A stretch of 24,267 nt of DNA, from positions 1 to 24,267 of the forward strand of contig CAYSRK010000298.1 of the NCBI GenBank assembly GCA_964433385.1, in the 5' to 3' direction. The position numbers and the translations under genes are program-made. The stretch comes from an uncultured Spirochaetales bacterium. GTDB taxonomy: Bacteria > Spirochaetota > Spirochaetia > JABMQR01. The notes below the pieces were generated by a model. That model was not told where the DNA came from and did not search any database. It saw nothing but the letters and a program-made list of their open reading frames with translations. Positions 5,008 to 24,267 of the stretch are shown here, piece after piece; positions within the stretch are counted from its first letter, which is position 1, and the number at the start of each line of letters is the position of its first letter.

Positions 5008-5020
5008 TACCTGAAAAAAA

Positions 5021-5034
5021 AGCAAACGTTTGTA
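5021..5034. promoter_or_regulatory. LacI-type operator O3
   Basis: AGCAAACGTTTGTA with a perfect core CAAACGTTTG, a few nt downstream of the predicted +1. Confidence 0.7.
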
Positions 5035-5082
5035 CAAAGCTTCACCGGTTCCGCTCTGCGGTACGGCGAAGGAGGAGAAGGA

Positions 5083-5733
5083 TTGAAGGAACAGCTGTTT
5101 GCCGAACTGGCAGAAACCGTGCATACTTTTGACAGAGAGCGGGCTGAGAAGCTCGCGTTAGAGAGTATCGCTGCGGGAATAGACCCGTTGGAGACGCTTG
5201 AGGCGCTCACAAAGGCGATACGGGAGATCGGGGACCTCTACGATTCCGGGGAGGTGTTCCTGCCCGAGCTGATAGCCGCCTCAGAGGTAACCTCGGCTGC
5301 ATCGGCCCCGCTGGAAGCGGAAATTGAGCGGTGCAACATGAAGAAGCAGAGCATGGGCCGGGTCGTCATCGGGACGGTGTTCGGCGATATCCATGACATC
5401 GGAAAGAACATGGTTGCGACGCTGCTGCGGGCATCGGGTTTTGATGTGTACGACTGCGGAACGAACGTAAAGTCCGATCTCTTCATAGAGCGCATCCGCA
5501 GGGAACAGGCCGACCTGCTGGCCCTCTCCGCCCTGCTCACCACTACTGCCGAGGAGCAGCGCAGGACCATATCCGCTCTGAAGGAGCAGGGGCTGAGGGA
5601 CACGGTCGGTATCATGGTCGGCGGCGGAGGGATTACAAAGAAGTTTGCCGACGACATCGGGTCTGACGGGTATGCGGCAACCGCCTCAGGAGCGGCAGCG
5701 CTCGCGAAAAAGCTCTTAGGCCTCGCTGACTGA
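5083..5733 (+). CDS. Corrinoid (cobalamin-binding) protein, MttC/MtbC-like
   Basis: N-terminal cap domain; GTVFGDIHDIGKNMV (DxHxxG), SALLTTT, IMVGGG. TTG start at 5083 after AGGAGGAG. The ORF-track extension to 4639 runs through the promoter region and overlaps the AmDH gene. Confidence 0.93.
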   Translation: MKEQLFAELAETVHTFDRERAEKLALESIAAGIDPLETLEALTKAIREIGDLYDSGEVFLPELIAASEVTSAASAPLEAEIERCNMKKQSMGRVVIGTVFGDIHDIGKNMVATLLRASGFDVYDCGTNVKSDLFIERIRREQADLLALSALLTTTAEEQRRTISALKEQGLRDTVGIMVGGGGITKKFADDIGSDGYAATASGAAALAKKLLGLAD

Positions 5734-5770
5734 GGTCTTTGACCGGCAACAGAAAAGAAGGAGTTACGGC

Positions 5771-9081: not shown

Positions 9082-10423
9082 CGGCGTCTATGCGCTCCTG
9101 AAGCGCCTCCCGGCTGGGAATGATGGAGGAGAAGGCGAGCTCTCCGTTGATATAGATGCTCGGCAGCTGCGTCACCCGCATCTTCTGTGCCCTGACGATA
9201 TTCTCCATCGAAGCAGAAGCCTTGTACTCCACTACATCGATACGGTCACCGTAGGTCTCCTTCGCATCCATGGCAGACTGGTACATGTAGGTGCAGGCGG
9301 CGCAGGTGACTGAATCTATGGTGAAGACCTCGATAAGCGGACGTTCAAGAGCACCGTAGTCGGGCAGGCTCACCGCAATATCCTGACTCTGCCGCTCGTA
9401 CCCGGCGATCAGGCGGCGGGTCTGCTCAGTTTGGTGAACCGCCTGTTCGCAGCCGACGCAGTTTTCCACAGGGGTATCGTAGGGCATATCGCACCCGGGG
9501 GAGATGATCAGATTCCGATGGTCTACGGCGTCGAGCTCATCAATGACGACTTTCATATTGTCCTGCTGGCTGCCGAAGAGCATGACTGAGGCGAGCGGGA
9601 TATTGCCGCCGAGGACGACGTTATAGCGGTCGGTTACCGCTTTGGTCGCGGCGAAATCGAGGTTTTCATCCACGGAAATACCGTCAGGCTCGGTTCTGCA
9701 CATGACTTCTATGTTTTTCGTCGCATCCCCGCAGACGAAGAAGCTGGAAAACCGTCCGAGTTCCCGGATACGGGAGTGGAGCTTCAGGTAGGGTTCGTGC
9801 ATGAACTGGGTGAAGTGCTTCGGCGATATCTGGGAAATAAGCGGATCAACCGGGGCAAGAATGTCGGCGCCGGCTTCAGCGTAGTACTCTGCCATAGCGA
9901 CGGCAATCTCTGTGGTCCAGCTGAGCAGCCGGGTCACATAATCGGGGTCCTTGATGAAATCCATGAAGATGTTCGTTCCCCGCAGGTGGGAGGCAAGGGT
10001 AAAGGGACCGCAGAAGAGACCGTAGATGGCCGTCGTGTCCCCGACTGCCTCGCTGAGCGCTTTTGCAGCAGCAAGGGCAAGCGGAATGCGCCCGGCCTCC
10101 CGGCTTGGGATACTGTCCGGAATATCCTTGCCGGAGGAGAGCGGATGGGTGGTCACTGTGGCAGGGGAGTCCTTTGCCCACATGAGATCACAGCCGAGAG
10201 CCTCTGCTTCGATCTGCAGATCAAACATGACCGTCTGTCCGTCAGGCCTGTAAAGCTGGTGCGCCTTCAGCAGCGCCCGGTTCAGGGTCTCAAGTTTTGT
10301 GTAGACCTCCTGCGCATCGGCGCCGATCAGTTTTCCGGCATGCACGCCGGCAAACGGTACCCAGGGAACTGCATCGGCCTGTTCATGTCTGAATACCGCA
10401 TATATACGTTCCTTTCCTGTCAT
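9068..10423 (-). CDS. MtaA/CmuA (uroporphyrinogen decarboxylase fold) methyltransferase-family protein fused to a C-terminal thioredoxin-like domain
   Basis: UroD-fold motifs FDLQIEAEALG, GPFTLASHLRG, FFVCG, GGNIP, ISPGCDMPYDTPVEN. The last ~100 aa read EVFTIDSVTCAAC...VTQLPSIYING, a thioredoxin/glutaredoxin pattern with CxxC and cis-Pro. RBS AAGGAG. Confidence 0.85.
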   Translation of the reverse strand: MTGKERIYAVFRHEQADAVPWVPFAGVHAGKLIGADAQEVYTKLETLNRALLKAHQLYRPDGQTVMFDLQIEAEALGCDLMWAKDSPATVTTHPLSSGKDIPDSIPSREAGRIPLALAAAKALSEAVGDTTAIYGLFCGPFTLASHLRGTNIFMDFIKDPDYVTRLLSWTTEIAVAMAEYYAEAGADILAPVDPLISQISPKHFTQFMHEPYLKLHSRIRELGRFSSFFVCGDATKNIEVMCRTEPDGISVDENLDFAATKAVTDRYNVVLGGNIPLASVMLFGSQQDNMKVVIDELDAVDHRNLIISPGCDMPYDTPVENCVGCEQAVHQTEQTRRLIAGYERQSQDIAVSLPDYGALERPLIEVFTIDSVTCAACTYMYQSAMDAKETYGDRIDVVEYKASASMENIVRAQKMRVTQLPSIYINGELAFSSIIPSREALQERIDAVMPE

Positions 10424-10570: not shown

Positions 10571-11122
10571 TTATACGGACTGCGGCGGCTGAGGGGTGAG
10601 CAGTTTTTCAAAGAGTCCTGATATGACTTCAGTTACTGCCTCCTGTGAAGGGTCGGTACGGAATCCTCCCGCCTCCCGGTAGGCCCGGTCGGGAGTGAGC
10701 CCGCCTTTGATCGCGTTGACCTGGCGAGTGAACGCCTGATCCTCCCCGAGAATGTGGGTAATCAGCCAGCTTGATAGGAATGCGAGTACGTCGACCATGC
10801 CGTTTCCTTGACCGCTGCGCAGAGAGTGGAAGCAGATGTCGATTTTCCTGATGAAACTGAGGTGGGCAGCCTTATGCCGGGAGGCTGACTGCACGGCGAT
10901 ATCGAGAAGATCCATCCACTCCTCTTCGGTTCTGAAGTGGGTATCGGCAAACTCTGTGAGCCGCTCCCGCAGCTTCTCCGTCTGAGAAGCGGAGGAACTG
11001 CTGCCGGATGCAGCAAGGCCTGCTGCATCATTGAGGATCTCTATGAGGCTCCGGTGCTGCGCATCAACTAAGGCTATCCCTGTTTCCAGAACAGGATTCC
11101 AGCTGATAATCTCTTTAGTCAT
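10571..11122 (-). CDS. Bacteriohemerythrin (stand-alone)
   Basis: W...ETGIALVDAQH; THFRTEE (HxxxE); HKAAH (HxxxH); WLITHILGED (HxxxxD). All di-iron ligands are present. 8-bp overlap with the kinase stop. Confidence 0.92.
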   Translation of the reverse strand: MTKEIISWNPVLETGIALVDAQHRSLIEILNDAAGLAASGSSSSASQTEKLRERLTEFADTHFRTEEEWMDLLDIAVQSASRHKAAHLSFIRKIDICFHSLRSGQGNGMVDVLAFLSSWLITHILGEDQAFTRQVNAIKGGLTPDRAYREAGGFRTDPSQEAVTEVISGLFEKLLTPQPPQSV

Positions 11123-14100
11123 GACTCTCGTACTCCCCTGAGGATTTCCGTATCAGATTCTGCACAAGATCAACCGCCTTCTGATATTCATACCGGCTCA
11201 GCGCCCTGCCCAATGAGGAGGCGGCGCTGCCGAAGAGTGCGCTGAACAGGGTGCTGTTTTCTTCAAAAACCGCATTGGAGGAGGTGTCGTTTTTTTCCAG
11301 CAGCGCCACGAAGCGGCTGAGCAGCGGCTGGTGCTCCTCTATCAGGTGCGGGTCACCCTGAGCGGCAGGGGTAGCCGGCTGCTCGAGCGGGGGAGGCAGT
11401 ATCGGCGCCAGGGAGGCGACCATCCGGTTGAAATCAGCGATGAAGCCAAAGACAAGCGGAGAGAGCTCCTCCGCCTCGGCACCGCCAGCGATACTGTTCT
11501 CAAGCACCCCCGCAGCTTCCGAAAGCACACGCATGCCCAGGGTCCCGGTGAGCGATCTCAGGTTGTGCACAAACCCGCGCAGGGAGGGGTAATCTCCCTC
11601 CCTGAAAGAGGCCTCCATCAGTTCCCCGTCTTTTTCGTGTTTCCTGAAGAACTGCTCGACCATTTTGCGGTAAAGCTGGGCATCTACCATCAGATACTTG
11701 AGGCCGCAGACGGTATCTATACCGGGAATCTGCTGCAGCCGGGAGAGAAGTTCCCCGGCAGGCTCAGGGTTCGCCGCGGTCGGTTCTGGGTCAGATGCCG
11801 CTTCAGCAGTCTTTTCCTTCAGGGGATCGGCAGCAGGAAGCCAGGCAAGAAGCCGTTCGTAGAGAACCTCCGGTTCCACTGGTTTGCTGATGTGATCGTT
11901 AAGACCGGCATGTATGCTCTCCTGCATATCTTCGGAGAATGCCTGAGCTGTCATGGCAAGAATGGGAACCGAATCCCAGCCCGGAAGGGTGCGGATGATC
12001 TTTGTCGCTTCATACCCGTTTATTCCCGGCATCCTGATATCCATGAGCACCAGGTCGTAGCGCTTAGCCCTTGCCAGTTCAACGGCCTCACGTCCGTTGG
12101 ATGCCACATCGGGCCGTATGCCGGCACCCCGCAGAAGCTGGCAGGCAAGTTCCTGGTTGATCTCATTGTCTTCGACCAAGAGCACTGACACGTTCCCGGC
12201 GGCTGCTTTCAGCCGCTCCGCCATGCGGTGTTCCCGACCGTCCTTATCCTGCTCCTCCGCGCTCTGCTCAGGGAGCACTCCCTCACGGCGTCGGGTTTCA
12301 ACGGAGCGTTCGGGCGGCAGGGGAAGGGTGAAAGGAATTTCCAGGATAAACTCCGAACCGGCGCCCTCCACGCTCTCGACGGTTATGGATCCGCCCATTA
12401 TCTCCGCCAGTCGCCTGCTGATGGCAAGCCCGAGTCCGGTTCCCCCGTAGCGGCGCGAGGCGGAGCTGTCACCCTGCTCGAAGGCCTGAAACAGGGTCTT
12501 AACGATATCAGGGGAAATGCCGATGCCCGTATCCTGTACACTGAACTGCAGCAGGATACGCTCCTTATCCTGTGAGAGAACCCGGCCTTTCACCCGTACA
12601 CTGCCGGCATCGGTGAATTTCACAGCATTTGAGACGAGGTTGAGCAGTATCTGGGAGAACCTTCGCCCGTCTCCGACAACCGCTTTCGGGATGCTGAGCG
12701 TGCTGGCCGAGAGATCGAGACCCTTCAGGTGGGCCTGTTCGGAAACGATTTCCAGGACCCGGCTGACTGTTTCGGCGGGATTGAAGCTCTCCTCAATCAG
12801 GGTCATCTTGTCGGCGTCGATTTTTGAGACATCAAGGATGTCATTGATGACTTTCAGGAGGGGAGCAGCGGAGCTGAGCAGCTTCTTGAGCTTCTCCCCC
12901 TGGCTCACAGGCAGCGGATCCTGCTGCATCAGGTAGGCGTATCCGAGAACAGCGTTCATCGGGGTACGGATCTCATGGCTCATGTTGGCCAGGAAGGTGC
13001 TTTTCGCCCTGTTCGCAGACTCGGCCTTCTCCCTTGCCCGTTCGAGCTCCCTCGTACGTGAGGCAACTATCTCCTCAAGGTGGAGCCGGTACTCATCAAG
13101 CGTGCGGGTGGTTTCCATGACGTCAGTTATGTCATGAATGATCCCCAGGACAGCCTCAGGAGTCCCTTCATCGTCAAACTGCGACTCGCCCTGCAGTTCC
13201 GCCCAGCGGGTATGCTCTCCCTGGAAAAAACGGCTGGTTATCTTGAACGGGACCCCGCCGAGAGCTCCCTCCCAAGCCCGGACGAGAGCGGGCAGGTCTT
13301 CCGGGTGGATGTAACGCGGGAAGAGGTCGGCATGGATTTCCCGCTGCCGCGGGATGCGGAATATATTCCGCGCTTCTTCAGATATGAAAAGCGTATCTTC
13401 CTTGATATCGTAGTACCAGTGTCCCGTGTGAGAAATTGCCTGCGCCCGCTCGAGAAACTTCTCATTGCGGCGCAGCGCTTCAACAGCGGTCTGCCGCTCG
13501 CGGTTGAGCAGCACTATGCTGATCTGGTCGGCAAACTGTCCGGCGAAGGTCTTCTCATCATCCTTCCACACTCTCTGGGATTCGAGGGTCGAGAGGATGA
13601 ACACCCCCCTCAGCCTGCCGCCGAAGGCTATCGCTGAGAAGAGCACCGAAGAGATTCCCTGGGAGAGTAAAAAATGGTTCTTGAAGGTTTCGTTCATGCC
13701 GGTGAAGCGGGGGATGTCTGTAACGGCGATCGTCCTGTTCTCGATGAGCGAGTCGAAATTGATGGAGAAAGTATCAAGCTTGACATCGGGAAGGCTTCTG
13801 TGCAGGGCATTCCGCGGTTCATAGATGTCGCTGCAGACGGCGCTGCGATTGTCTTCGCTGAACATCCAGATCGAAATCCGGTCAACGGCAAAGACCTCGG
13901 CGAGCATCTCGGTCAGCTTCGGGGAGATGGTGCCGCCTGGCCTGTTTTCACGTTCGGCCTCAGCAACCGCGGCAAGTATTTTCGGATAGGTCTTAAGCCT
14001 TCTGAGGTAGGCTGCCTGCTCCCTCTCCTGCCGCTCCGTTCTGGTGATATCACGCCAGGTGGCGTGTATCAGGAGGTTTCCGTGATGCATGATCGGCTGG

Positions 14101-15548
14101 ACTGCGACATTCACGATCCGCAGCCTGCCGTTTTTTGTCCGGTGACGGGTCTTGAATGCCTGTAAGCGGCCCTCAGGAATCGCTTCAAGGTGCTTCCTGA
14201 CCTCATCCGGGGACTGAAGAGCGTCCACGTCTTTAATGCAAAGCCGCAGGAACTCCTTCCGGGTGTATCCAAGCCGCCGGCACGCATTTTCGTTGCAGTC
14301 GATAAACCGGCCTGTTTCCGGTTCCATGAGAGCAATGGAATCCCGCGATAACTGGTAGATTGTATTCAGCAGCAGCTCCCGTTCCTTGAGACTCTCCAAG
14401 GCCGCCTTCCGTTCGATCACAGCAGCAATCCCATCGGTGATTGCGACAAGCAGCTCAAGCTCCTCCGGCAGGAGGAGCTCCCGATGCCTGTCGGTTCTCC
14501 CTTCTGCTGCGGACACGGCGACGGTGAGCGTCTTCCCGGTGGCGGGTCTGCGTTCAGCCGAATAGAGCACAGCTGAGGCATCGAAGCCGGCAGTACGGTT
14601 TTGTCTGTGCGCATAGGATATTTGCGCTTCCAGTTCCGAGGGCTTGCACAGCCCGTCATGCAGGGCTTCAAGCGCTGCCGAACAGAGTTCATCCAGGGAA
14701 CGCTCAACCTGGGCAGAAGCCATGAAACGGTACAAGGCTTCCTGGCGAACGATATGGCGCTTCAGCATGAGCTGCTCATCCTCGAGCGCCGCCTTGGTCC
14801 GCTTCAGTTCATCAATATCGCTGATGCTGGCAATGACCGCCCTCTGCCCTTCGTAGGTGATGATTGAAGCGGTTATCAGGAGCCAACGCCATGAGGCATC
14901 AGCAGAATGATAGTGTATTTCCCAATTGACCACCCGCTGTTTCCGCTCAAGATTCTCTAAAAGTGCGATGATCTGCGGATTGCTTCGAATCTGTTCAACC
15001 AGATTCGCATAGACATCAGGAGCCGATACGTGAAATGTCTCCTCGCACTGCCTGTTCATGTAGAGGGGTTTTCCGTCCTCAAGGCTGATGATCAGGATCG
15101 GGAAGGGGGCTGTGTCAAGCAGGTCTTGCTGCCTCCGCTCACTGTCGCTGAGTTTTCTGTTTGCGGTGACAATGTCGGTAACATTCCTTACAAGCGCATA
15201 GACCAGCCCTGAGGGGGCATGGGCATGCATCCTTGCCTCGTAGTGACGCTCCTCCCCATCCTTGGGAAGGGTATAGTTGAAGCTGACGGTTTCATTGCCC
15301 TGCAGAGCACGTTCAAAACTGTCGACAAACGTCTCCCTGAGATGGGACAGCAGGATGCTCTCCAACGGTCTGTTGAGAAAGCTGTCCGGATCCGTGAAGA
15401 GCTGTGAGGCATCCCGTGCGCGGTAATCGATGATCCTGCGCTGCCGGTCGAGAACGAAAAAGAGGTCGGGAATCAGGGTGAACAGGTTCTCAAACATGGC
15501 GACGGACGCCCCGGACTGTTCTCGATCTTTACTGCCTTCAGAACTCAT
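11115..15548 (-). CDS. Cytoplasmic hybrid sensor histidine kinase (about 4 PAS/PAC + GAF, HisKA, HATPase, REC, Hpt)
   Basis: H-box FLANMSHEIRTPMN; N-box QILLNLVSNAVKFT; G1 DTGIGI; G2 GGTGLGLAIS; REC LLVEDNEINQ...LMDIRMP...KP; Hpt VHNLRSLTGTLG; no obvious TM helix. Confidence 0.93.
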   Translation of the reverse strand: MSSEGSKDREQSGASVAMFENLFTLIPDLFFVLDRQRRIIDYRARDASQLFTDPDSFLNRPLESILLSHLRETFVDSFERALQGNETVSFNYTLPKDGEERHYEARMHAHAPSGLVYALVRNVTDIVTANRKLSDSERRQQDLLDTAPFPILIISLEDGKPLYMNRQCEETFHVSAPDVYANLVEQIRSNPQIIALLENLERKQRVVNWEIHYHSADASWRWLLITASIITYEGQRAVIASISDIDELKRTKAALEDEQLMLKRHIVRQEALYRFMASAQVERSLDELCSAALEALHDGLCKPSELEAQISYAHRQNRTAGFDASAVLYSAERRPATGKTLTVAVSAAEGRTDRHRELLLPEELELLVAITDGIAAVIERKAALESLKERELLLNTIYQLSRDSIALMEPETGRFIDCNENACRRLGYTRKEFLRLCIKDVDALQSPDEVRKHLEAIPEGRLQAFKTRHRTKNGRLRIVNVAVQPIMHHGNLLIHATWRDITRTERQEREQAAYLRRLKTYPKILAAVAEAERENRPGGTISPKLTEMLAEVFAVDRISIWMFSEDNRSAVCSDIYEPRNALHRSLPDVKLDTFSINFDSLIENRTIAVTDIPRFTGMNETFKNHFLLSQGISSVLFSAIAFGGRLRGVFILSTLESQRVWKDDEKTFAGQFADQISIVLLNRERQTAVEALRRNEKFLERAQAISHTGHWYYDIKEDTLFISEEARNIFRIPRQREIHADLFPRYIHPEDLPALVRAWEGALGGVPFKITSRFFQGEHTRWAELQGESQFDDEGTPEAVLGIIHDITDVMETTRTLDEYRLHLEEIVASRTRELERAREKAESANRAKSTFLANMSHEIRTPMNAVLGYAYLMQQDPLPVSQGEKLKKLLSSAAPLLKVINDILDVSKIDADKMTLIEESFNPAETVSRVLEIVSEQAHLKGLDLSASTLSIPKAVVGDGRRFSQILLNLVSNAVKFTDAGSVRVKGRVLSQDKERILLQFSVQDTGIGISPDIVKTLFQAFEQGDSSASRRYGGTGLGLAISRRLAEIMGGSITVESVEGAGSEFILEIPFTLPLPPERSVETRRREGVLPEQSAEEQDKDGREHRMAERLKAAAGNVSVLLVEDNEINQELACQLLRGAGIRPDVASNGREAVELARAKRYDLVLMDIRMPGINGYEATKIIRTLPGWDSVPILAMTAQAFSEDMQESIHAGLNDHISKPVEPEVLYERLLAWLPAADPLKEKTAEAASDPEPTAANPEPAGELLSRLQQIPGIDTVCGLKYLMVDAQLYRKMVEQFFRKHEKDGELMEASFREGDYPSLRGFVHNLRSLTGTLGMRVLSEAAGVLENSIAGGAEAEELSPLVFGFIADFNRMVASLAPILPPPLEQPATPAAQGDPHLIEEHQPLLSRFVALLEKNDTSSNAVFEENSTLFSALFGSAASSLGRALSRYEYQKAVDLVQNLIRKSSGEYESHD

Positions 15549-16366: not shown

Positions 16367-17032
16367 ATGGAAAATAAAGCTGCTTACATTGATCACACCA
16401 TACTGAAGGCCGATGCCGTAAAAGAGCAGGTTCTGCAGGTATGTCGTGAGGCGAAGGAGTTCGGTTTTGCCGCGGTATGCGTGAATTCAGCCCGGGTTCC
16501 GCTCTGCGTCGAGGCTCTTGCCGGCTCATCGGTAAAAGTCTGCGCGGTGGTCGGTTTTCCCCTCGGGGCCATGCTGACCGAGGCCAAGGCGTTCGAGGCT
16601 CAGGCAGCCGTTGCTGCAGGCGCGCAGGAGATCGACATGGTCATTAATATCGGCGCTCTCAAGGACGGTGATGATGCCTGGGTGGAGGAGGATGTCAGGC
16701 AGGTGAAGATAGCCTGCGGCGACAGCCTGCTGAAGGTCATCATTGAGGCATGCCTGCTCACAGAAGAGGAGAAGGTACGTGCCTGCCGTCTGGCCAAGCG
16801 GGCGGGTGCCGATTTTGTCAAAACCTCCACCGGGTTTTCCCTCCATGGAGCCACCCCCGAAGATGTCGCCCTCATGCGCTGTACGGTGGGTGATGATATG
16901 GGAGTGAAGGCCGCCGGCGGTATCCGCACCCTCGCCGATGCCGAAATCATGATTCGTGCCGGCGCGAACCGGCTGGGAACCAGCGGCGGGGTCGCCATAA
17001 TGAAAGGCGAACCGTTTGAAACGAGCTACTGA
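16367..17032 (+). CDS. deoC: Deoxyribose-phosphate aldolase
   Basis: [51 protein letters not shown]; RBS GGAGG. Confidence 0.97.
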
Positions 17033-19032
17033 GCGGTCTGCTTTTCTGCGGCGGGTCCGCTGAGCAAAGCGAGGACCTTGCGTATCTTTACCGGGCGGCG
17101 GTCAAAGTCCCTGCGGCGACAGACCTGCTCGCATGCTCCGCTGCATCGGCTGCAGGGAAGGTCCTGCTCGGCCGGCCGATCCTCCTTCTGACGGTATCCG
17201 ACGATGTCTCGGTCGAGCTGCCGTTGTGCCCCGAGCACGTTACCGGCCTCAAGCCGCCGCATGATCCCCCTGATATCAAGTTCTGCCGGGCATACGGCGG
17301 TGCAGGGGGCATCCTCACACCAGAGACACCGCGATGCCCGATCATGCAGGAGAATCTTCTCTGACTCCTCCTCCCCGATTGCGTTGCGTGCGGGGATGAT
17401 CCGTCCACTGCTGTCCGAGCGCAGCGGAGGTCCGGTTACCTGGTAGAGGGTGACCCGGTCTTCTGCATGCACCCGGTGGCGGTACTCCTCCAGGCCGCGG
17501 GTTCTGAGGACCATGTTCGCGGCGCTGATGCCGGAGATGGTTACGGCCGGGCTTCCCGTACCCATTACCGTGCTCTCTCCGCAGATAAACAGGCTGTCCC
17601 ACCGGGTTGAGGCATGCTGGCGCCTGAGCAGGTCCTGGCCCATCTGCTGCTTGGGACCGGCCACGCAGCCATGCTCCTTGAGCGTATAGCGCTCTATCGT
17701 GGTCGGCGTCGCCAGGGTGGAGTACCGCAGGCCTGTTCTGAACCCGGGAAAATGGGATTCGAGAATCGAGAGCAGACGCTCGGTTTCCCGTTCCTTGGCT
17801 GCAGCGTAGGCAGGACTGCGGTACTGCGGGTCATCCGGAGAGGGCCAGCTGTCCAGCTGAGGCCCGATAGCCGTTACCAGGTGCTCTCCGCGGGGACAGA
17901 TGGAAGGATCGGCGAGGGAGAAGATGTACGCAGTAACCTCCTTCTCGTCTATCTTCTCCGGGTTGTCGGCAAACATCTCGATCGGCAGGGTGCCCTCCGG
18001 GATAACCGTCTCATCGACAGCGGCGTAGATGACGACGCTCGGATAGGTCATGGCCAGGGCTTCGATACGCTCAAGCTCCCCGGGACTGCGGTGCTCCTCG
18101 GGTATAAGCCGGGTGTGCAGCTGTCTGAGGGTCCCGCCGTATATGATCTGATCCGCCGATATCTGGACGAGGGCATCCGGTTCTCCCCACGGCGTGTGCT
18201 TCCGGGCGAGGACTCCGGCAGGCTTGCCCTGGGAGAAGATCAGTTCAAGCGCCCGCGTACTGTAGAGTACACTTCCGCCCCGGCGCTCCAGTGCCTTCTC
18301 GAGTTTGCCGGGAAGCTGCTGGGTTCCCCCCGCCGGGTAATAGCTGCCGCCGTAGTGGTTGTCCATGAACATCGTAACGGCAAGGATCGCCGGGGTTTCA
18401 TCCATGGTGGTGTAGCAGTAGGTGGAGGTGAGCTTGCTGAAGAACCGGGCGACCTCCTCTGACCTGACGAACCGGCGCAGCAGGTCACCGGCACTCTTTT
18501 CAAAGAGCCTGAGGAGCTTGAGATTACGTACAGGGTGGCGCAGAAAGAGTTTTCTTCCCTCCGCAGCCGGGATCTCGGAAGGGGCGGTGCAGATCGGTTC
18601 GGCAGTGATCACGTTGAGGTAGAGGTCCTCCATATAGCGGTAGAAGGCCCTGATGCCCCTGATATCGCGGGGGAACAGCTGCTCAAGCTGTTCCATGAAC
18701 AGATCAATATCGGTACAGAAGGTGATCGGATGTCCGTCGTAGATGACCCGGTAGAGGTGTTCATGCTTGATGATGTCGATCGGTTCATCAAGCTCGTTCA
18801 TGACGAACCGGTGGGGGTTGAATCCTCTCGATCCGAAACCGTAGAGCATGGCGGTTCCCTGGTCAAAGGTCCTGTCCTGCCGTCGGAACGCTCCGCAGGA
18901 GCCTCCAGGCTGGAAGTGCTGCTCGATCACGGTTACCCGCAGTCCCCGCTTGGCCAGCAGGGCAGCGGCTGTAAGTCCCCCGAGACCCGAGCCGATGACT
19001 GCTATGTCTGTCTGAATAGATTCTTTTTCCAT
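17026..19032 (-). CDS. Phytoene desaturase (CrtI/CrtISO-like) FAD oxidoreductase fused to a C-terminal DPD/GltD-type 2x[4Fe-4S] domain
   Basis: VIGSGLGGL...[11 protein letters not shown]...FDQG; [26 protein letters not shown]; then [18 protein letters not shown]...[14 protein letters not shown]. Start at ATG 19032 after AGGAG. Confidence 0.82.
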
Positions 19033-19145
19033 GCTCTGCTCCTGCGCACGACATCCGGCTTTACTCAGAGTAAGCATGCCGAAGGAGAGCAGAAAAATCA
19101 ATCGCGGCTGCAGCCGGACCGGTGGGGATTTTCACGCGCCCTTGA

Positions 19146-19174
19146 TAGCCAACCGGCGGCAAATGGGGTATGAT
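19146..19174 (+). promoter_or_regulatory. Predicted tdk-pdp promoter (possibly a leaderless transcript)
   Basis: TAGCCA-N17-TATGAT; the ATG lies only 8 nt after the -10 and no SD is present. Confidence 0.45.
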
Positions 19175-19182
19175 GATCTATT

Positions 19183-20334
19183 ATGGCCTACACTGAGACA
19201 GATGCGCAGACAAGCAGTTTCCTCAAGAGCCTCGGGTTTCCGACGGTCCAGGTTCATGAGGCGTTTACCCACTTTGATTTTTCCCGTCCCTCAAGGCGGG
19301 TTCTGGTTATCGGGCCGATGGGTTCAGGCAAGACCGAGTACTCGGCCAGGGTGTGGCGGGATGCGCAGGTAGCCCTCTCGAAGAGCGAAAAGATCAGGCA
19401 GCAGACTTCATCGGGGAGGGTGGATCGGCGGAAAGTCTTTTTCATCAGAACCCTGCTCGATGATGTCCGTTTTCCCGACTATCCCGAGGATGCTCTGGCC
19501 TACCGGGGCGGGTACGTGTGCTGCGGGGAGAATATTGCGCGCATCAGGGACTCCTTCGCCCTCGAACAGGCGCTTGAGGAGTTTCCCGACATCGGGACCT
19601 GGATAATCGATGAAGCTTCGTTCTACGATGAGCGGCTGGCCTATGTGGTGCGCAACGACAGTCTTGAGCGGGGTACCCTCTATATCTTTCCGACGCTGAT
19701 TCTCAACTTCCGCAAGGATATCTTCAACTCCACCGCCCGGCTCATGCTCGATATTGCGACCGACGTCATCCCGCTGACCGCCTACTGCGAGCATCCAGAC
19801 TGTCTGGAGAACTCCTTCTACACCTACCGCTACTACTCAGTGGGGGGCAGGGAGTGCCCTGCACTCTTCTTTGATCCGCTGATCATAGTTGGCGGGGACC
19901 GAAAGAAGGAGGATCCCCTGCAGCCCAACTACTGCTCCCGCTGTGATGAGCACCATTACCTGCCGGGGAAAGAGTACACCTACTTCACCCTCAAGCCGCT
20001 GGGAGAGCAGGCGGCTTCAGGGAATTACGGACCGCTGAAGCAGGAGCTCAACAGCCTGAAACGTACGATGGAGCAGTCTCTGCTCTATGCGCATATGGAG
20101 AGGAAGTACCAGGACGATACCGACGGTGAGGTGAACATGAATGCGCTTCTGCCGGCCTGCATCGCAGAGAAGGCTCTCATCTACCTCTTCTGCGAGCAGA
20201 ATTTGATCCCGGAAGAACTCCTTCTGAAACTTGTCAACGAACTGTCGCTTGACCGGGATTACATGAGAAGAACCCTGCTGGACAACCGGCGCACAGTCAA
20301 CCTGGACCAGCCGCTGCTTGAGGGGCTGTACTGA
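19183..20334 (+). CDS. tdk: Thymidine kinase, long spirochaete type
   Basis: Walker A GPMGSGKTE; Walker B WIIDEASF; LILNFRKDIFNST; Zn-lasso AYCEHPDC...YCSRCDEHH; ~100-aa C-terminal extension. Confidence 0.88.
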   Translation: MAYTETDAQTSSFLKSLGFPTVQVHEAFTHFDFSRPSRRVLVIGPMGSGKTEYSARVWRDAQVALSKSEKIRQQTSSGRVDRRKVFFIRTLLDDVRFPDYPEDALAYRGGYVCCGENIARIRDSFALEQALEEFPDIGTWIIDEASFYDERLAYVVRNDSLERGTLYIFPTLILNFRKDIFNSTARLMLDIATDVIPLTAYCEHPDCLENSFYTYRYYSVGGRECPALFFDPLIIVGGDRKKEDPLQPNYCSRCDEHHYLPGKEYTYFTLKPLGEQAASGNYGPLKQELNSLKRTMEQSLLYAHMERKYQDDTDGEVNMNALLPACIAEKALIYLFCEQNLIPEELLLKLVNELSLDRDYMRRTLLDNRRTVNLDQPLLEGLY

Positions 20335-20387
20335 CGGCAGCAGGCTGTGATTATCCCCACGGAGAACGTTCGAAAGGAGGATGTACT

Positions 20388-21698
20388 ATGAGAATTCCCG
20401 ACATCATCTACAAAAAGCAGCACGGGCAGGCTCTCTCAACCGAGGAAATTGCCTACTTCATCAGAGGGTATACCGACGGCAGCGTTGGTGATGACCAGGC
20501 CGCCGCTCTCTGCATGGCGATCTGGTTCAACGGGATGGACTACCGGGAGACGGCGGACCTGACCCAGGCTATGGCTGATTCGGGCGATACCGTCGACCTT
20601 TCGGGGATAGACGGCATCAAGGTCGATAAGCACAGCTCAGGGGGGGTAGCTGATACGACGACGATAGCTGTTGCCCCGCTTGTTGCCGCCTGCGGCGGGC
20701 TGCTGGCGAAGATGTCCGGCCGCGGGCTCGGTCACAGCGGTGGAACCCTCGATAAGCTGGAATCGATTCCGGGCTACAATGTGAATCAGGAGATGGAGGA
20801 TTTCATCAGGATCGTCAACACGTGCGGCGCCTCAATTATCGGCCAGACGGGTTCCCTCGCTCCGGCCGATAAGAAGCTCTACTCCCTGCGGGATGTAACC
20901 TCCACGGTGGATGCGATGCCGCTGATCGCTTCGAGCATTATGAGCAAGAAGCTCGCCTCCGGAGGCGACCGCATCCTTCTGGACGTCAAGTGGGGCAACG
21001 GGGCGTTCATGCCGACCGTGTCACAGGCGGAGGAGCTTGCCCGCATTATGGTGGAGATCGGCCGGCATGCGGGAAGGCCGACGAAGGCCATGATAACCGA
21101 CATGAATCAGCCGCTCGGAAACGCTGTCGGCAATGCGTTGGAGGTTGAGGAGGCAGTCCGGATCCTGCGCGGCGAGCTGAAGGGGGATCTGCGTGATCTC
21201 ATTGCGGCGCTCTCGGTGGAGATTCTGGTGATGGGCGAGATCTACGGAACAGCGGAAGAGGCCCGGCTGCGGGTGGATCAGGCCCTGCTTGACGGTTCAG
21301 CCCTGCGCAAGCTGCAGCAGATGATTGAACTGCACGGAGGAAACCCCGCTGTCTGCGATGATCTCGACCTTCTTCCCAAGGCCCAAAACCGGGTAACCGT
21401 CCGCAGCGGCCGGTCGGGGTATATCACGGGAATGGAGGCTGACCGCATAGGGCTGGCGACGGTCATGCTTGGAGCAGGAAGGGAAAAGAAAACCGACCCC
21501 ATAGATCCTGCCGTCGGGCTCTGGCTGAACAAACGCATCGGTGACCCGGTGGAGACCGGAGAACCGCTGGCTGAGTTCTACATCAATGATACCCGCAGCA
21601 GGGATGAGGCGCTCGCTCTCTTTCTCAGCGCGGTCCACATCGGAGATGAACAGCCTGCGGCGCAGCCGCTGATCGTAAAGGTTGTGGAAATGGTTTGA
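20388..21698 (+). CDS. pdp: Pyrimidine-nucleoside (thymidine) phosphorylase
   Basis: VDKHSSGGVAD, KMSGRGLGHSGGTLDKLESIPG, LASSIMSKK-type motif IASSIMSKKLA, ITDMNQPLG; RBS AAGGAGG. Confidence 0.96.
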   Translation: MRIPDIIYKKQHGQALSTEEIAYFIRGYTDGSVGDDQAAALCMAIWFNGMDYRETADLTQAMADSGDTVDLSGIDGIKVDKHSSGGVADTTTIAVAPLVAACGGLLAKMSGRGLGHSGGTLDKLESIPGYNVNQEMEDFIRIVNTCGASIIGQTGSLAPADKKLYSLRDVTSTVDAMPLIASSIMSKKLASGGDRILLDVKWGNGAFMPTVSQAEELARIMVEIGRHAGRPTKAMITDMNQPLGNAVGNALEVEEAVRILRGELKGDLRDLIAALSVEILVMGEIYGTAEEARLRVDQALLDGSALRKLQQMIELHGGNPAVCDDLDLLPKAQNRVTVRSGRSGYITGMEADRIGLATVMLGAGREKKTDPIDPAVGLWLNKRIGDPVETGEPLAEFYINDTRSRDEALALFLSAVHIGDEQPAAQPLIVKVVEMV

Positions 21699-21723
21699 CA
21701 GGGTGTATCGCGAAAGATACAAT
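21695..21723 (+). promoter_or_regulatory. Near-consensus sigma70 promoter of the BMP gene; the -35 overlaps the pdp stop codon
   Basis: TTGACA-N17-TACAAT; contains the inverted repeat TGTATC-N6-GATACA at 21704-21721. Confidence 0.8.
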
Positions 21724-21755
21724 GGATTGTGAAAATTAACCAAGGAGGATATCCA

Positions 21756-22826
21756 ATGAAGAAGCTTGTTGGAGTTCTATGTGTTCTCTCTCTGGCAGCA
21801 GGTCTGCTGTTTGCGGGCGCGGAGGCTGATGATGCCGCGAAAATGAAGGTTGGAATGGTGACCGATGCCGGCACCATCGACGATAAATCGTTCAATCAGG
21901 GAACCTGGGAGGGGGTTCTGATGGCCGCTGAGGATTTTGATCTTGAGACGAAGTATCTCAAGCCGAGCGGAACAACCGAGGCTGACTACCTGCAGGAAAT
22001 CGGCAACCTCTACGATGCGGGATTTACCTTTATGGTAACCCCGGGATTCAAGTTTGAGACCTCAATTTTCCAGGCTCAGACGAAGTATCCTGATGCAAAG
22101 TTCGTCCTTCTCGACGGATACCCGCACAGCGGAGATTATAACCCGGTAGTTAACGACAACACGGTCTCGATCTTTTTCGCTGAGCACGAGTCCGGTTTTC
22201 TTGCCGGTCTCGCAGCTGCGCTGCAGCTGAAAACCGGCGATTTCGGGTTTGTCGGCGGTATGGAAATTCCGGCGGTGCAGAAGTTCAACTGGGGTTTCCA
22301 GCAGGGCGTGCGCTATGCCAACGAAAACTACGACACAAGCATCACCATGAAGCCGCAGAATGTAATTTATCAAGGAACCTTTGACGATGTGGCTGCCGGC
22401 CAGCAGATTGCGGCTTCCATGTACGACCGCGGGGTGAAGGCTATTTTTGCCGCAGCCGGAGGGGTCGGCGTAGGCGTCATAAGCGAGGCCAAGTCCAGAG
22501 CGGCGACCGGCAAGGAAGTCTGGGTTGTCGGAGTTGATGTTGACCAGTACCCTGAAGGAATCTACAGCGGGGACAAGTCGATCATCCTTACCTCGGCGAT
22601 GAAGAAGATTGATCTGGCGGCGTACGACATGATCAAGGCCGAGCTGGACGGAAATTTCCCCGGGGGAGAGATTCTGACCCTTGATGCGACCAACGACGGT
22701 ATCGGCATTCCGGCTGAGAACCCCAACCTTGACGATGCGGTTGAGGCCAAGGTGGCTGAGACCTTCGCCAAACTGAAGGCGGGTTCACTTACTGTATCCG
22801 ATGAGCGGGGCGACCTGATCAAGTAG
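21756..22826 (+). CDS. BMP family (PnrA/TmpC-like) ABC substrate-binding protein, probably nucleoside-binding
   Basis: Signal peptide MKKLVGVLCVLSLAAGLLFAG; VTDAGTIDDKSFNQGTWEG; FAEHESGFLAG; AAAGGVG; VGVDVDQ; TSAMKKID. ATG 21756 follows AAGGAGG. Confidence 0.93.
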   Translation: MKKLVGVLCVLSLAAGLLFAGAEADDAAKMKVGMVTDAGTIDDKSFNQGTWEGVLMAAEDFDLETKYLKPSGTTEADYLQEIGNLYDAGFTFMVTPGFKFETSIFQAQTKYPDAKFVLLDGYPHSGDYNPVVNDNTVSIFFAEHESGFLAGLAAALQLKTGDFGFVGGMEIPAVQKFNWGFQQGVRYANENYDTSITMKPQNVIYQGTFDDVAAGQQIAASMYDRGVKAIFAAAGGVGVGVISEAKSRAATGKEVWVVGVDVDQYPEGIYSGDKSIILTSAMKKIDLAAYDMIKAELDGNFPGGEILTLDATNDGIGIPAENPNLDDAVEAKVAETFAKLKAGSLTVSDERGDLIK

Positions 22827-22960: not shown

Positions 22961-23082
22961 GCAGCCCGGTTACAGATGTATGCGGTCCGAACAGGAAGCT
23001 GCAGCTGAATACGGCAGCGGGACATGTGCCCCTGCCCGGTGTTCCGAAGACCCGGAATCAGCAGTTCCGGCAGGAGACGCCA

Positions 23083-24267
23083 ATGAAACTCCATCCTGTA
23101 AAGGAGGCTGTCGTCGTTGAAAACGACGAGCCTCCACCTTCAGCAGAACCTCCCTCAGCTATTTCCTCCATCTCAGATGACATGCTTCGGGAGGTCTCGA
23201 TCCGCCTGTTCAGGAAACGGTTCTTTCCTGATATCACCCGTAAAACGTGGAACGACTGGAAATGGCAGTACGCCTCACGGATCAGGACGCTCTCCGGGCT
23301 GTCCAGGATACTCTCCCTCTCTCCGGAGGAGAGCTCAGTCCTGCGCGCTCAGGGAGAGAGGAATCCGGAGCAGCTTCATCTGCCCTTTTCCGTTACCCCC
23401 TACTACCTGAGTCTCATAGACCCCGAAGACTCGGCGGACCCGATCCGCAGGACGGTCATCCCGACGCTGCATGAGCTGAGGGTCAGCGAAGGCGAGTTCA
23501 GCGACCCGCTTGATGAGCACAGCGATTCACCCGTTCCCTCCATCGTTCACCGCTACCCGGACAGGGTACTCTTTCTGGTAACCAGCAGCTGTGCCGCCTA
23601 CTGCCGCTACTGTACCCGCTCGCGGTTCGCCGGGGGCCATACCACGATGATGCGCCGCCACTGGGATACCGGAATCGAGTACATCAGGAACCATACCCAG
23701 GTCCGGGACGTGATCGTCTCAGGCGGGGACCCCCTTACCCTGAGCGATGAGGAGCTGGCATACCTGCTTGACAGCCTTTACCGGATACCCCATGTGGAGA
23801 TGGTGCGGCTCGGTACCAAGGTGCCGATGGTGATGCCCCAGAGGATTACCGGCGACCTGGTAAAAATGCTCAGACGATACAAGCCGCTGTATATGAGCAT
23901 CCACGCAACCCACCCGCGAGAAATAACTGCCGCGGTTTCAGCTGCCTGCAGCCGTCTGGCTGACAGCGGCGTGGTGCTCGGCAGCCAGACGGTTCTGCTC
24001 AAAGGGGTAAACGACTCATCGGATACTCTCAAGCGGCTGTTTCACCGTCTGCTGAAGATCCGGGTCAGGCCCTACTACCTCTATCAGTGTGATCCAGTAG
24101 TCGGAACAGCACAGTTCCGGACAACGATTGATGAGGGTAAGGAGATCATGCGGCAGCTGCGGGGGTTCACCAGCGGATACGCGGTTCCCCAGTATATCGT
24201 CGATACCCCGGGCGGGGGGGGGGAAGGGGCCGATCCTCCCCCGTTTCAGCGCCGGCCGGGGCGGGGG
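23083..24267 (+). CDS. kamA: KamA-family radical SAM protein (lysine 2,3-aminomutase-like); 3'-truncated, with an apparent +1 frameshift at 24214-24223; not in the ORF track
   Basis: Hand translation from ATG 23083 (AGGAG RBS): WNDWKWQ, TPYYLSLID, HRYPDRVLFLVTSSCAAYCRYCTRSR (CxxxCxxC), SGGDPL, RLGTKVP, IHATHPRE, QTVLLKGVND, RPYYLYQCD, GFTSGYAVPQYIVDTPGGGG. Confidence 0.92.
   Translation, partial: MKLHPVKEAVVVENDEPPPSAEPPSAISSISDDMLREVSIRLFRKRFFPDITRKTWNDWKWQYASRIRTLSGLSRILSLSPEESSVLRAQGERNPEQLHLPFSVTPYYLSLIDPEDSADPIRRTVIPTLHELRVSEGEFSDPLDEHSDSPVPSIVHRYPDRVLFLVTSSCAAYCRYCTRSRFAGGHTTMMRRHWDTGIEYIRNHTQVRDVIVSGGDPLTLSDEELAYLLDSLYRIPHVEMVRLGTKVPMVMPQRITGDLVKMLRRYKPLYMSIHATHPREITAAVSAACSRLADSGVVLGSQTVLLKGVNDSSDTLKRLFHRLLKIRVRPYYLYQCDPVVGTAQFRTTIDEGKEIMRQLRGFTSGYAVPQYIVDTPGGGGEGADPPPFQRRPGRG
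23103..23135 (+). other. Strong hairpin in the first codons of kamA
   Basis: GGAGGC-TG-TCGTCGTT-GAA-AACGACGA-GCCTCC (6+8 bp with a 2-nt bulge). Confidence 0.65.

What the first reader, a model, noticed from the sequence alone, without database searches (positions are those of the whole stretch)
17026..19032. CrtI-like flavoprotein fused to a DPD/GltD-type Fe-S domain, sitting inside a pyrimidine salvage cluster
Seen: a complete CrtI-type FAD domain (about 510 aa), a linker, then [14 protein letters not shown] and [12 protein letters not shown] (8 Cys). Established: CxxCxxxxCxxxCP is the N-terminal Fe-S module of dihydropyrimidine dehydrogenase/PreT and GltD, where it precedes the flavin domain. 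Here it is C-terminal and attached to a different flavoprotein family. No carotenoid genes lie nearby, and the neighbours are deoC, tdk, pdp and BMP. Inference: an anaerobic, ferredoxin-linked C=C reductase or desaturase for a non-carotenoid substrate (lipid, isoprenoid, or possibly a pyrimidine base).
Basis: partly seen in the sequence, partly recalled or inferred. Interest (0 to 1): 0.65.

Follow-up and report, generated by a model that had tools for sequence, protein, structure and literature searches.

The report
Iron-sulfur-wired carotenoid-isomerase-like flavoenzyme
This gene encodes a flavoenzyme of the carotenoid-isomerase branch with a built-in two-cluster iron-sulfur "wire"; it belongs to a widespread, uncharacterised family of anaerobes that probably does oxygen-free double-bond chemistry on a lipid, and it was inserted into the pyrimidine-salvage operon rather than being part of it.

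Summary
Window 17029-19032 (minus strand) encodes 668 aa: an Amino_oxidase/CrtI-type FAD domain (17-509) plus a Fer4_20 domain (563-653) with both Cys motifs. The tail aligns to pig DPD residues 75-117.

The fusion is not unique. More than 1,400 homologues exist in anaerobes of many phyla, all named generically. This scan met the family before on other DNA.

What I add:
- Relatives of about 960 aa carry the whole GltD-like module (Fer4_20 + Pyr_redox_2) and branch basally. The window's form looks truncated, and a further subclade kept only one cluster.
- The flavin domain belongs to the CrtISO branch but fails the CrtISO and CrtI cut-offs.
- The gene is an antisense insertion between deoC and a tdk-like gene. 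Relatives without it keep an unbroken deoC-tdk-pdp-BMP operon, so the pyrimidine context carries no functional weight.
- Carriage does not track phytoene/squalene synthase. It tracks a tail-less CrtI-like paralog (9 of 11 carriers versus 24 of 290 others). That paralog lies adjacent in other phyla, there with CrtQ- and CrtO-like genes.

Best reading (about 0.45): a ferredoxin-fed C=C reductase of a hydrophobic polyene or isoprenoid-like substrate. Rivals are an isomerase or an anaerobic dehydrogenase. Substrate unknown.

The parts
17026..19032 (-). Complete gene (668 codons plus stop) for the CrtISO-like flavoprotein with an Fe-S tail, called T in this report
   Evidence: ORF and translation; Pfam and NCBIfam; AF2 model with pLDDT 88.4 and pTM 0.92
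17497..19011 (-). FAD-binding/substrate domain of the amine-oxidase/CrtI fold, residues 8-512
   Evidence: Amino_oxidase 17-509. Best NCBIfam model is carot_isom at 218.5 bits, below its 586.9 cut-off. Best Foldseek matches are 4rep, 3ka7 and 4dgk
18973..18999 (-). Dinucleotide-binding motif VIGSGLGGL (GxGxxG) of the FAD domain
   Evidence: Translation; NAD_binding_8 at residues 12-67
17365..17496 (-). Structured linker, residues 513-556, between the flavin and Fe-S domains
   Evidence: pLDDT of about 89-93 and a beta-strand at 527-531 in the model
17074..17346 (-). Fer4_20 domain (DPD/GltD/NfnB-type 2x[4Fe-4S] helical domain), residues 563-653
   Evidence: Pfam Fer4_20 at 33.5 bits; alignment to DPD 75-117 and NfnB 34-76
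17287..17328 (-). First Cys motif [14 protein letters not shown] (C569, C572, C577, C581)
   Evidence: Translation; C569, C572 and C577 are invariant; aligned with DPD C79, C82, C87 and C91
17119..17154 (-). Second Cys motif [12 protein letters not shown] (C627, C630, C634, C638)
   Evidence: Translation; C638 invariant and C634 nearly so; C627 and C630 are lost in the one-cluster subclade
19033..19182 (.). 150-bp divergent intergenic region shared with the tdk-like gene; it presumably holds the promoter of T
   Evidence: Gene coordinates. One weak sigma-70-like match on the + strand only. Not analysed further
16367..17032 (+). Context only: deoC, convergent with T; the 3' ends overlap by 7 bases. 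Upstream half of the interrupted operon
   Evidence: TIGR00126 at 282 bits; the operon is contiguous in relatives without T
19183..22826 (+). Context only: tdk-like, pdp and BMP genes, the downstream half of the interrupted nucleoside operon

Best explanation
The gene (T) encodes a flavoenzyme of the CrtISO branch of the CrtI/amine-oxidase superfamily with its own electron wire. The wire is a C-terminal DPD/GltD-type domain that should bind two [4Fe-4S] clusters. Inferred mechanism: a low-potential donor, such as ferredoxin or flavodoxin, reduces the outer cluster. Electrons then pass through the inner, invariant cluster (C569, C572, C577, C638) to the FAD. The reduced FAD saturates a C=C bond of a hydrophobic polyene or isoprenoid-like substrate, without O2 or quinones. 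T most likely works with a tail-less CrtI-like paralog, P2, which this genome encodes on another contig in a SnoaL-like - SDR - P2 operon. T is an accessory gene inserted antisense into the deoC-tdk-pdp-BMP operon and is not part of pyrimidine salvage. Shown here: the architecture, its conservation, its descent from longer forms, the insertion, and the co-occurrence with P2. Inferred: cluster binding, direction of electron flow, reductase chemistry and substrate class. My odds: reductase about 0.45, anaerobic dehydrogenase or hydroxylase about 0.2, isomerase about 0.15.
For: Architecture and conserved Cys motifs. The confident single-body model (pTM 0.92) indicates that the tail packs onto the flavin domain. 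Relatives of about 960 aa have Amino_oxidase + Fer4_20 + Pyr_redox_2, and residues 540-961 of P0135 match GltD-like models. In a tree rooted on the genome's own CrtI and CrtD, the long forms are basal, the short two-cluster forms are nested (SH-aLRT 99), and the one-cluster clade is nested again (100). In GltD, DPD and Nfn this module carries electrons from NAD(P)H towards the partner flavin (own knowledge). Desaturation with NAD(P)+ as acceptor would be strongly uphill: CRTI works best with acceptors of 0 to +100 mV (PMC3382138). The flavin domain scores best against CrtISO (218 bits). A true CrtISO (P0185, 800 bits) is 30% identical, and the nearest untailed relatives are near-CrtISO. P2 co-occurs with T: 9 of 11 T carriers versus 24 of 290 others in the class sample. 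Fisher p = 4e-8 and family-stratified CMH p = 0.001. P2 is present in 37 of 50 T-carrying genomes across phyla and lies adjacent to T in about 19 of 80 loci. The window genome's P2 is 41% identical to an adjacent paralog. Lipid-type partner genes occur nearby: CrtQ-like GT2 in 18 loci, CrtO acyltransferase in 15, a TspO-like membrane protein in 16, and SnoaL_2 plus SDR. Insertion into the operon.
Against: No member of the family has been assayed, and I found no paper on it. The CtmAB precedent shows that a pair of CrtI-like proteins with a ferredoxin and an NADH:ferredoxin reductase can catalyse a net oxidation (PMC4109377). The NAD(P)H module of the long forms therefore does not prove a reductive reaction. 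CrtISO itself needs reduced FAD for a redox-neutral isomerisation (PMC3382138), so an electron input fits an isomerase equally well. The window's clade usually stands alone, with variable neighbours. The lipid-type operons are mostly those of the one-cluster clade, which is only 45-49% identical, so its chemistry may differ. Two T carriers lack P2, one of them a single-contig genome. I could not measure cluster-to-flavin distances in the model.
Confidence: 0.45

Rival explanations
1. T, with P2, is an oxygen-independent dehydrogenase, allylic hydroxylase or desaturase, in the manner of limonene dehydrogenase CtmAB, the delta-24 sterol desaturase or CrtN. The Fe-S tail carries electrons away from the FAD, or reductively activates the enzyme.
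For: CtmAB and delta24-SD are heterodimers of two distantly related CrtI-like subunits, and CtmAB depends on a ferredoxin and an NADH:ferredoxin reductase encoded nearby (PMC4109377, PMC11061730). The T + P2 pairing mirrors this. In other phyla the operon T-P2-GT2-CrtO resembles the staphyloxanthin genes crtN/P/Q/O. Canonical CrtN in obligate anaerobes makes no pigment without O2 (PMC11611032), so an Fe-S exit would solve a real problem.
Against: Passing electrons from C-C desaturation up to NAD(P)+ in the basal long forms is thermodynamically unfavourable (own knowledge; PMC3382138 gives acceptor optima of 0 to +100 mV). CtmAB and delta24-SD contain no Fe-S. Their covalent-flavin motif G-F-[LR]-x-[NS]-[TL]-H-A is not seen with that spacing; T has GFNPHR. 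40 of 56 genomes carrying the family have no SQS_PSY synthase to supply a carotene precursor.
Confidence: 0.2
2. T is a redox-neutral cis-trans isomerase like CrtISO/CrtH. The Fe-S tail only keeps the FAD in the reduced state that this chemistry needs.
For: The best family model is carotenoid isomerase, and the nearest untailed relatives are near-CrtISO. CrtISO requires reduced FAD for a non-redox reaction (PMC3382138). The genome makes carotenoids: CrtB, CrtI(D), CrtD, CruF, a cyclase domain and CrtW.
Against: T scores 218.5 bits against a cut-off of 586.9. The genome's desaturase is of the CrtI type (NF058655, 680 bits), which yields all-trans lycopene and needs no CrtISO (PMC3382138). Carriage of T is not enriched with SQS_PSY: 4 of 11 carriers versus 110 of 301 overall. 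A full NAD(P)H-FAD-2x[4Fe-4S] chain in the long forms is heavy equipment for a catalytic priming role.
Confidence: 0.15
3. T is a new uracil/thymine (C5=C6) reductase that serves the neighbouring pyrimidine nucleoside catabolism genes, replacing PreT/PreA-type dihydropyrimidine dehydrogenase.
For: The tail is homologous to the DPD Fe-S domain. T lies between deoC and tdk-like/pdp in three genomes of two families. In another spirochaete lineage it lies directly upstream of a dihydropyrimidinase-like gene (TIGR02033, 400.6 bits against a 393.25 cut-off).
Against: The Fe-S domain is a generic electron module of GltD, Nfn and DPD, not the pyrimidine-binding part. The deoC-tdk-pdp-BMP operon is intact and contiguous in five relatives without T, and T is antisense to it. 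GcvPB and the hydantoinase-like gene are adjacent in genomes without T. That gene occurs at orthologue level (about 45% identity or more) in about 47 genomes against 11 for T, and is unlinked to T in family f7. Elsewhere T sits beside Mrp antiporter/MFS, hydrogenase or lipid-type genes. The catalytic domain is CrtISO-like and co-occurs with P2, SnoaL and SDR.
Confidence: 0.04

Closest known systems
CrtISO / CrtH carotenoid cis-trans isomerases (TIGR02730), and by own knowledge the related retinol saturase RetSat
   Same: Same fold and the same branch of the CrtI superfamily. It is the best-scoring model (218.5 bits) and T is 30% identical to a bona fide CrtISO. This chemistry uses reduced FAD (PMC3382138). 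RetSat, by my own knowledge, is a C=C reductase of this branch.
   Different: T scores far below the equivalog cut-off of 586.9. It has family-specific motifs ([30 protein letters not shown]) that CrtI, CrtD and P2 lack. It carries an Fe-S domain that no characterised CrtISO or RetSat has. It shows no link to the poly-cis pathway or to SQS_PSY.
N-terminal Fe-S domain of dihydropyrimidine dehydrogenase / PreT / GltD / NfnB (Pfam Fer4_20)
   Same: Homologous domain with the same CxxCxxxxCxxxCP motif; about 44% identical to DPD residues 75-117. It presumably binds two [4Fe-4S] clusters and relays electrons.
   Different: In the window protein it is C-terminal, follows a CrtI-type domain, and lacks the Pyr_redox_2 NAD(P)H/FAD domain. 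The second motif has four Cys in ferredoxin-like spacing. By my own knowledge, DPD uses three Cys plus a Gln there and NfnB a Glu. Long relatives still have the Pyr_redox_2 domain.
Limonene dehydrogenase CtmAB (with CtmE ferredoxin and CtmF reductase) and delta-24 sterol desaturase
   Same: Anaerobic enzymes built from two distantly related CrtI-like subunits (COG1233). They act on isoprenoid substrates, and an Fe-S protein plus an NAD(P)H flavoprotein form the electron chain (PMC4109377, PMC11061730). T + P2, and the Pyr_redox_2 of the long forms, mirror CtmA + CtmB + CtmE + CtmF.
   Different: There the electron chain is made of separate proteins of other families (a 2Fe-2S ferredoxin). The catalytic subunits hold covalent flavin and no iron. 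A T-P2 heterodimer has not been shown. The covalent-flavin motif was not recognised in T.
CrtI / CrtN / CrtD phytoene-type desaturases (TIGR02734)
   Same: Same superfamily and fold (Foldseek matches 4rep and 4dgk).
   Different: 123 bits against a cut-off of 238.1. These enzymes pass electrons to O2 or quinones and have no Fe-S domain (PMC3382138). The genome has its own true CrtI(D) and CrtD on other contigs.

Membership tests
Amine-oxidase/CrtI flavoprotein superfamily (Pfam PF01593) | Full-length match above the gathering score, with an N-terminal GxGxxG FAD fold | tested here: met
   69.4 bits against 19.8, profile positions 1-443 of 443; VIGSGLGGL motif; fold matches to 4rep, 4dgk and 3ka7
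Carotenoid isomerase CrtISO/CrtH (TIGR02730 equivalog) | Score at or above the curated cut-off of 586.9 bits | tested here: not met
   218.5 bits; a true CrtISO, P0185, scores 800.5
Carotenoid isomerase CrtISO/CrtH (TIGR02730 equivalog) | Serves a poly-cis (PDS/ZDS) desaturation pathway and co-occurs with phytoene synthase | tested here: not met
   The genome's own desaturase is of the CrtI type (NF058655, 680 bits). SQS_PSY is present in 4 of 11 carriers against 110 of 301 overall, and in 15 of 56 carrier genomes across phyla
Phytoene desaturase family (TIGR02734 subfamily) | Score at or above the curated cut-off of 238.1 bits | tested here: not met
   123 bits
Fer4_20 domain (PF14691) | Match above the gathering score, with both Cys motifs present and conserved in orthologues | tested here: met
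   33.5 bits against 25.8; aligned to DPD and NfnB; motifs conserved in 96-100 of 120 homologues
Fer4_20 domain (PF14691) | Actually binds two [4Fe-4S] clusters | not testable with these tools
   Needs iron and sulfide analysis and EPR on anaerobically purified protein
GltD / PreT / NfnB-type NAD(P)H oxidoreductases | Fer4_20 followed by a Pyr_redox_2 FAD/NAD(P)H domain | tested here: not met
   The window protein ends 15 residues after Fer4_20. The feature is met in the long relatives P0132, P0135 and P0157
CtmAB / delta24-SD heterodimeric flavoenzymes | Two distantly related CrtI-like subunits encoded together | tested here: inconclusive
   A paralog lies adjacent in about 19 of 80 loci and co-occurs in 9 of 11 and in 37 of 50 carrier genomes. 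In this genome it is unlinked (contig C224), and physical binding was not tested
CtmAB / delta24-SD heterodimeric flavoenzymes | Covalent flavin on the His of G-F-[LR]-x-[NS]-[TL]-H-A, and no iron | tested here: inconclusive
   The motif is not found with that spacing. T has an invariant H74 within GFNPHR. I had no Ctm sequence to align. The Fe-S domain is a clear difference
Retinol saturase (RetSat) | Sequence membership, and NAD(P)H- or donor-dependent saturation of a polyene C=C bond | not tested
   No reference sequence or model was available in the tools; the resemblance rests on my own knowledge

The most novel reading that the evidence does not exclude
T and its paralog P2 form a CtmAB-like two-flavoprotein enzyme with a built-in Fe-S wire. 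This enzyme lets strict anaerobes perform CrtI-type (de)saturation of polyene or isoprenoid lipids without O2 or quinones. In the T-P2-CrtQ-like-CrtO-like operons (with a TspO-like protein and UvdE) it would build a carotenoid-like acyl-glycolipid in genomes that have no SQS_PSY synthase at all, which would imply an unrecognised precursor route.
Probability: 0.12. Interest if true: 0.85.

Novelty: new variant of a known kind. Interest (0 to 1): 0.55.

Why it matters
CrtI-family enzymes are normally tied to O2 or quinones, and for CrtISO and RetSat the physiological source of flavin-reducing electrons is poorly defined. A family with that source fused on gives a direct handle on how anaerobes run this chemistry. 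The family shows a readable series: a full NAD(P)H-FAD-2x[4Fe-4S] module, then two clusters, then one. It occurs in hundreds of anaerobe genomes from sediments, digesters and guts and includes cultured carriers (Anaerobium acetethylicum, Acetobacterium bakii, Trichococcus palustris), so it can be tested. If it saturates or remodels polyene, isoprenoid or sterol-like lipids, it bears on anaerobic lipid transformation and possibly on pigment-like glycolipids in anaerobes. For this window, the practical lesson is that the pyrimidine-salvage setting is an insertion site and not a functional clue.

Tried and rejected
- **Isoprene reductase IsrA.** I checked whether the family is the putative isoprene reductase IsrA. 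It is not: IsrA is a GltD/NfnB-type protein with no CrtI-like domain.
- **Link to carotenoid synthesis.** I tested this through SQS_PSY. It was found in 0 of 5, then 14 of 50 carrier genomes, and in 4 of 11 carriers against 110 of 301 in the class. There is no enrichment.
- **Dihydropyrimidinase-like neighbour.** It first looked like support for a pyrimidine role. I rejected it because GcvPB and that gene are adjacent without T, and the gene is far commoner than T and unlinked to it in family f7.
- **Spurious ORF.** The 664-aa 'unknown' ORF upstream of T in L001 was a spurious antisense ORF over tdk-like/pdp.
- **Neighbourhoods of three long forms.** The contigs were too short to be informative.
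- **Literature.** Searches for the architecture, for anaerobic CrtI-type Fe-S enzymes and for SnoaL/SDR/CrtI clusters found no characterised member.
- **ESM Atlas.** It gave only generic cluster names.
- **Composition.** T has about 62-63% GC against 56-59% in the flanks. This is too mild to count as evidence of transfer.
- **Promoter and terminator scan.** Nothing useful.
- **Complex prediction for T with P2.** Not run. The two whole proteins total 1,207 residues, over the 1,000-residue limit, and cutting either flavin domain would be unsound.
Full report
**What is there.**
The finding's coordinates hold one gene on the minus strand, 17026-19032 with its stop codon. It starts at an ATG preceded by AGGAG and encodes 668 residues. 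Pfam finds a full-length Amino_oxidase (CrtI-type) domain at 17-509 and a Fer4_20 domain at 563-653, both above their curated scores. The tail is more than a generic ferredoxin motif. It aligns over 43 residues with pig dihydropyrimidine dehydrogenase 75-117 and with NfnB 34-76, so C569, C572, C577 and C581 correspond to DPD C79, C82, C87 and C91. An AlphaFold model built on 20 homologues is confident as one body (pLDDT 88.4, pTM 0.92), with a structured linker. Its closest solved folds are carotenoid desaturases 4rep and 4dgk and the uncharacterised 3ka7. No solved structure combines the two domains.

**How common it is.**
The fusion is widespread and unnamed.
- A search of 5.8 billion proteins gave 1,450 hits. 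The best 120 are nearly all 605-710 aa and are called only 'FAD-dependent oxidoreductase' or 'prolycopene isomerase'.
- Of those 120, 100 have the four-Cys first motif and 96 also have a second four-Cys motif. The other 20 keep only CxxCxxxxC plus CxxxC, enough for one cluster.
- In one genome per species (185,579 species), 445 stretches encode a relative. The hosts are anaerobes of Spirochaetota, Bacteroidales, Marinimicrobia, Thermotogota, Chloroflexota, Bacillota, Actinomycetota and others. Three are cultured isolates.
- In the window's own class it is patchy: 11 of 301 genomes.
- I found no paper on a characterised member.
- The scan noted this family before on other DNA. My own tests agree with those notes.

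**Where it comes from.**
An exhaustive HMMER search also found relatives of 800-980 aa. P0132, P0135 and P0157 are Amino_oxidase + Fer4_20 + Pyr_redox_2, and residues 540-961 of P0135 match GltD-like models. I built a tree of the flavin domains, rooted on this genome's own CrtI and CrtD.
- The long forms make the basal grade.
- The short two-cluster forms are nested within them (support 99).
- The one-cluster clade is nested again (support 100).

So the 'C-terminal Fe-S domain' is what remains of a whole GltD-type electron-input module fused behind a CrtI-like enzyme. The nearest untailed proteins are near-CrtISO: P0161 and P0168 score about 510 bits on TIGR02730. A true CrtISO (P0185, 800 bits) is 30% identical to the target. 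The target itself scores 218.5 bits against the 586.9 cut-off, and 123 bits against 238.1 for the CrtI family. It is therefore a separate family within the CrtISO branch, with its own invariant motifs.

**The pyrimidine neighbourhood.**
The target is convergent with deoC, with 3' ends overlapping by 7 bases, and divergent from tdk-like. In five relatives without the gene, three of them from the same family, deoC, tdk-like, pdp and BMP form one contiguous co-directional operon. In the three carriers of this arrangement (the window, a same-genus MAG, and one genome from another family) the gene sits antisense between deoC and tdk-like. It is an insertion that splits the operon.

A second apparent pyrimidine clue also fails. 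In another spirochaete lineage the gene lies just upstream of a dihydropyrimidinase-like gene (TIGR02033, 400.6 bits). GcvPB and that gene are adjacent in genomes without the insert. The gene is also far more widespread than the target and is unlinked to it elsewhere. In Bacteroidales and Marinimicrobia the neighbours are an Mrp antiporter with an MFS transporter, or a hydrogenase. I therefore give the uracil/thymine-reductase idea about 0.04.

**Carotenoids.**
No crt gene lies in the window, but the genome has a full pathway on two small contigs.
- Contig C390: CrtI(D) at 680 bits on NF058655, a phytoene synthase, and CruF.
- Contig C225: a lycopene-cyclase domain, CrtD, and a CrtW-like ketolase.

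That pathway uses a CrtI-type desaturase, which makes all-trans lycopene and needs no CrtISO (PMC3382138). Across genomes, carriage of the target does not follow SQS_PSY. Counts are 4 of 11 carriers against 110 of 301 in the class, and 15 of 56 carrier genomes overall. Genomes with no SQS_PSY match include a complete chromosome and two isolates.

**What it does travel with.**
I clustered the neighbours of 80 loci.
- A second, tail-less CrtI-like paralog (P2, about 520 aa) lies directly downstream in about 19 loci of several phyla and both tail types.
- In Bacillota, Chloroflexota and others the set extends to a CrtQ-like GT2 (18 loci), a CrtO-family acyltransferase (15), a 270-aa TspO-like membrane protein with no Pfam match (16), and UvdE-DUF1722 (10).

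The window's genome has P2 on contig C224 (539 aa). It is 41% identical over its full length to an adjacent paralog from a Clostridia MAG. It sits in a conserved SnoaL_2 - SDR - P2 operon. Co-occurrence is as follows.
- In the class sample, 9 of 11 carriers of the target have P2, against 24 of 290 other genomes.
- The pattern recurs in five families (Fisher p = 4e-8; family-stratified CMH p = 0.001). Related genomes are not independent, so these p values overstate the case.
- Across phyla, 37 of 50 carrier genomes have P2.

**Mechanism.**
Shown: the architecture, the conserved ligands, descent from NAD(P)H-linked long forms, the association with P2 and with lipid-type genes, and independence from both the pyrimidine operon and SQS_PSY.

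Inferred: the tail binds two [4Fe-4S] clusters and passes electrons from a low-potential donor to the FAD, which then acts on a hydrophobic unsaturated substrate. I favour C=C saturation (about 0.45) for three reasons. The basal forms carry a complete NAD(P)H input chain. Desaturation towards NAD(P)+ would be uphill. The CrtISO branch includes chemistry based on reduced flavin.

The rivals remain open. CrtISO needs reduced FAD without net redox, which gives an isomerase about 0.15. The CtmAB and delta24-SD precedents show that paired CrtI-like subunits with a ferredoxin/reductase chain can catalyse net oxidations of isoprenoids in anaerobic metabolism (PMC4109377, PMC11061730), which gives a dehydrogenase about 0.2.

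The invariant cluster (C569, C572, C577, C638) is the one kept in the one-cluster clade. By analogy with DPD and Nfn (own knowledge), it would be the cluster facing the partner flavin. The cluster that is lost would have faced the now-missing GltD-type FAD.

**Verdict.**
This is a new variant of known kinds (a CrtISO-branch flavoenzyme plus a DPD/GltD electron module), uncharacterised, and already met by this scan elsewhere. The substrate is unknown.

Noticed in passing
window 4639-10423: A corrinoid methyltransferase set: a B12-binding corrinoid protein (4639-5733), an MttB-family methyltransferase (5771-7213), a RACo-type reductive activase (7210-9081) and, on the minus strand, an MtaA/CmuA-like URO-D protein. 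The last has a C-terminal thioredoxin-like extension that matches the HUIPC-motif (seleno)protein model (9068-10423).
   Followed up: no
window 19183-20334: A TK1-like thymidine kinase homologue of 383 aa with a Walker A motif, IDEASF and a Cys-rich zinc motif, plus a C-terminal extension of about 120 aa. It matches the tdk model only weakly (37.5 bits against 183). It is conserved in 19 of 26 related genomes, always downstream of deoC.
   Followed up: partly
own genome contigs C390 (L082) and C225 (L084): A complete carotenoid pathway outside the window. C390 holds CrtI(D), a phytoene synthase and CruF. C225 holds a lycopene-cyclase domain protein, CrtD and a CrtW-like ketolase. This suggests a pigmented spirochaete.
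   Followed up: partly
own genome contig C224 (L086:2-2911) and L108-L115: A conserved three-gene operon: a SnoaL_2/NTF2-like protein (about 150 aa), an SDR (about 315-340 aa) and the CrtI-like paralog P2. It occurs in 33 of 301 genomes of the class and is strongly associated with the Fe-S-tailed gene.
   Followed up: partly
L071:7149-7976, L053:6351-7163, L026:7232-8014 and 13 more loci: A family of multi-pass membrane proteins of about 270 aa with Trp-rich, TspO-like motifs (NLFAPAG.TFSIWG, WIF.WHY, LPFS.YFGWITVATIAN) and no Pfam match. It is conserved next to the tailed gene, often with UvdE-DUF1722 upstream.
   Followed up: no
L016:9940-11370, L021:9946-11370, L097, L098: In one spirochaete lineage a dihydropyrimidinase/hydantoinase-like gene is conserved directly downstream of the glycine-cleavage P-protein genes (SHMT - unknown 281-aa gene - GcvPA - GcvPB - hydantoinase), whether or not the tailed gene is present.
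   Followed up: partly
window 10571-15548 (minus strand): A 1,477-aa hybrid histidine kinase with several PAS domains, a GAF domain and a receiver domain, followed by a bacteriohemerythrin gene whose start overlaps the kinase gene's end. The kinase is syntenic in the same-genus relative.
   Followed up: no
window 23026-24267: A KamA-family radical SAM aminomutase, cut off by the window end. Its best model is lysine 2,3-aminomutase, but below the cut-off.
   Followed up: no
L001:5695-7689: A 664-aa ORF with no family match proved to be a spurious antisense ORF over the real tdk-like and pdp genes. Long false ORFs of this kind are a hazard in this high-GC lineage.
   Followed up: yes
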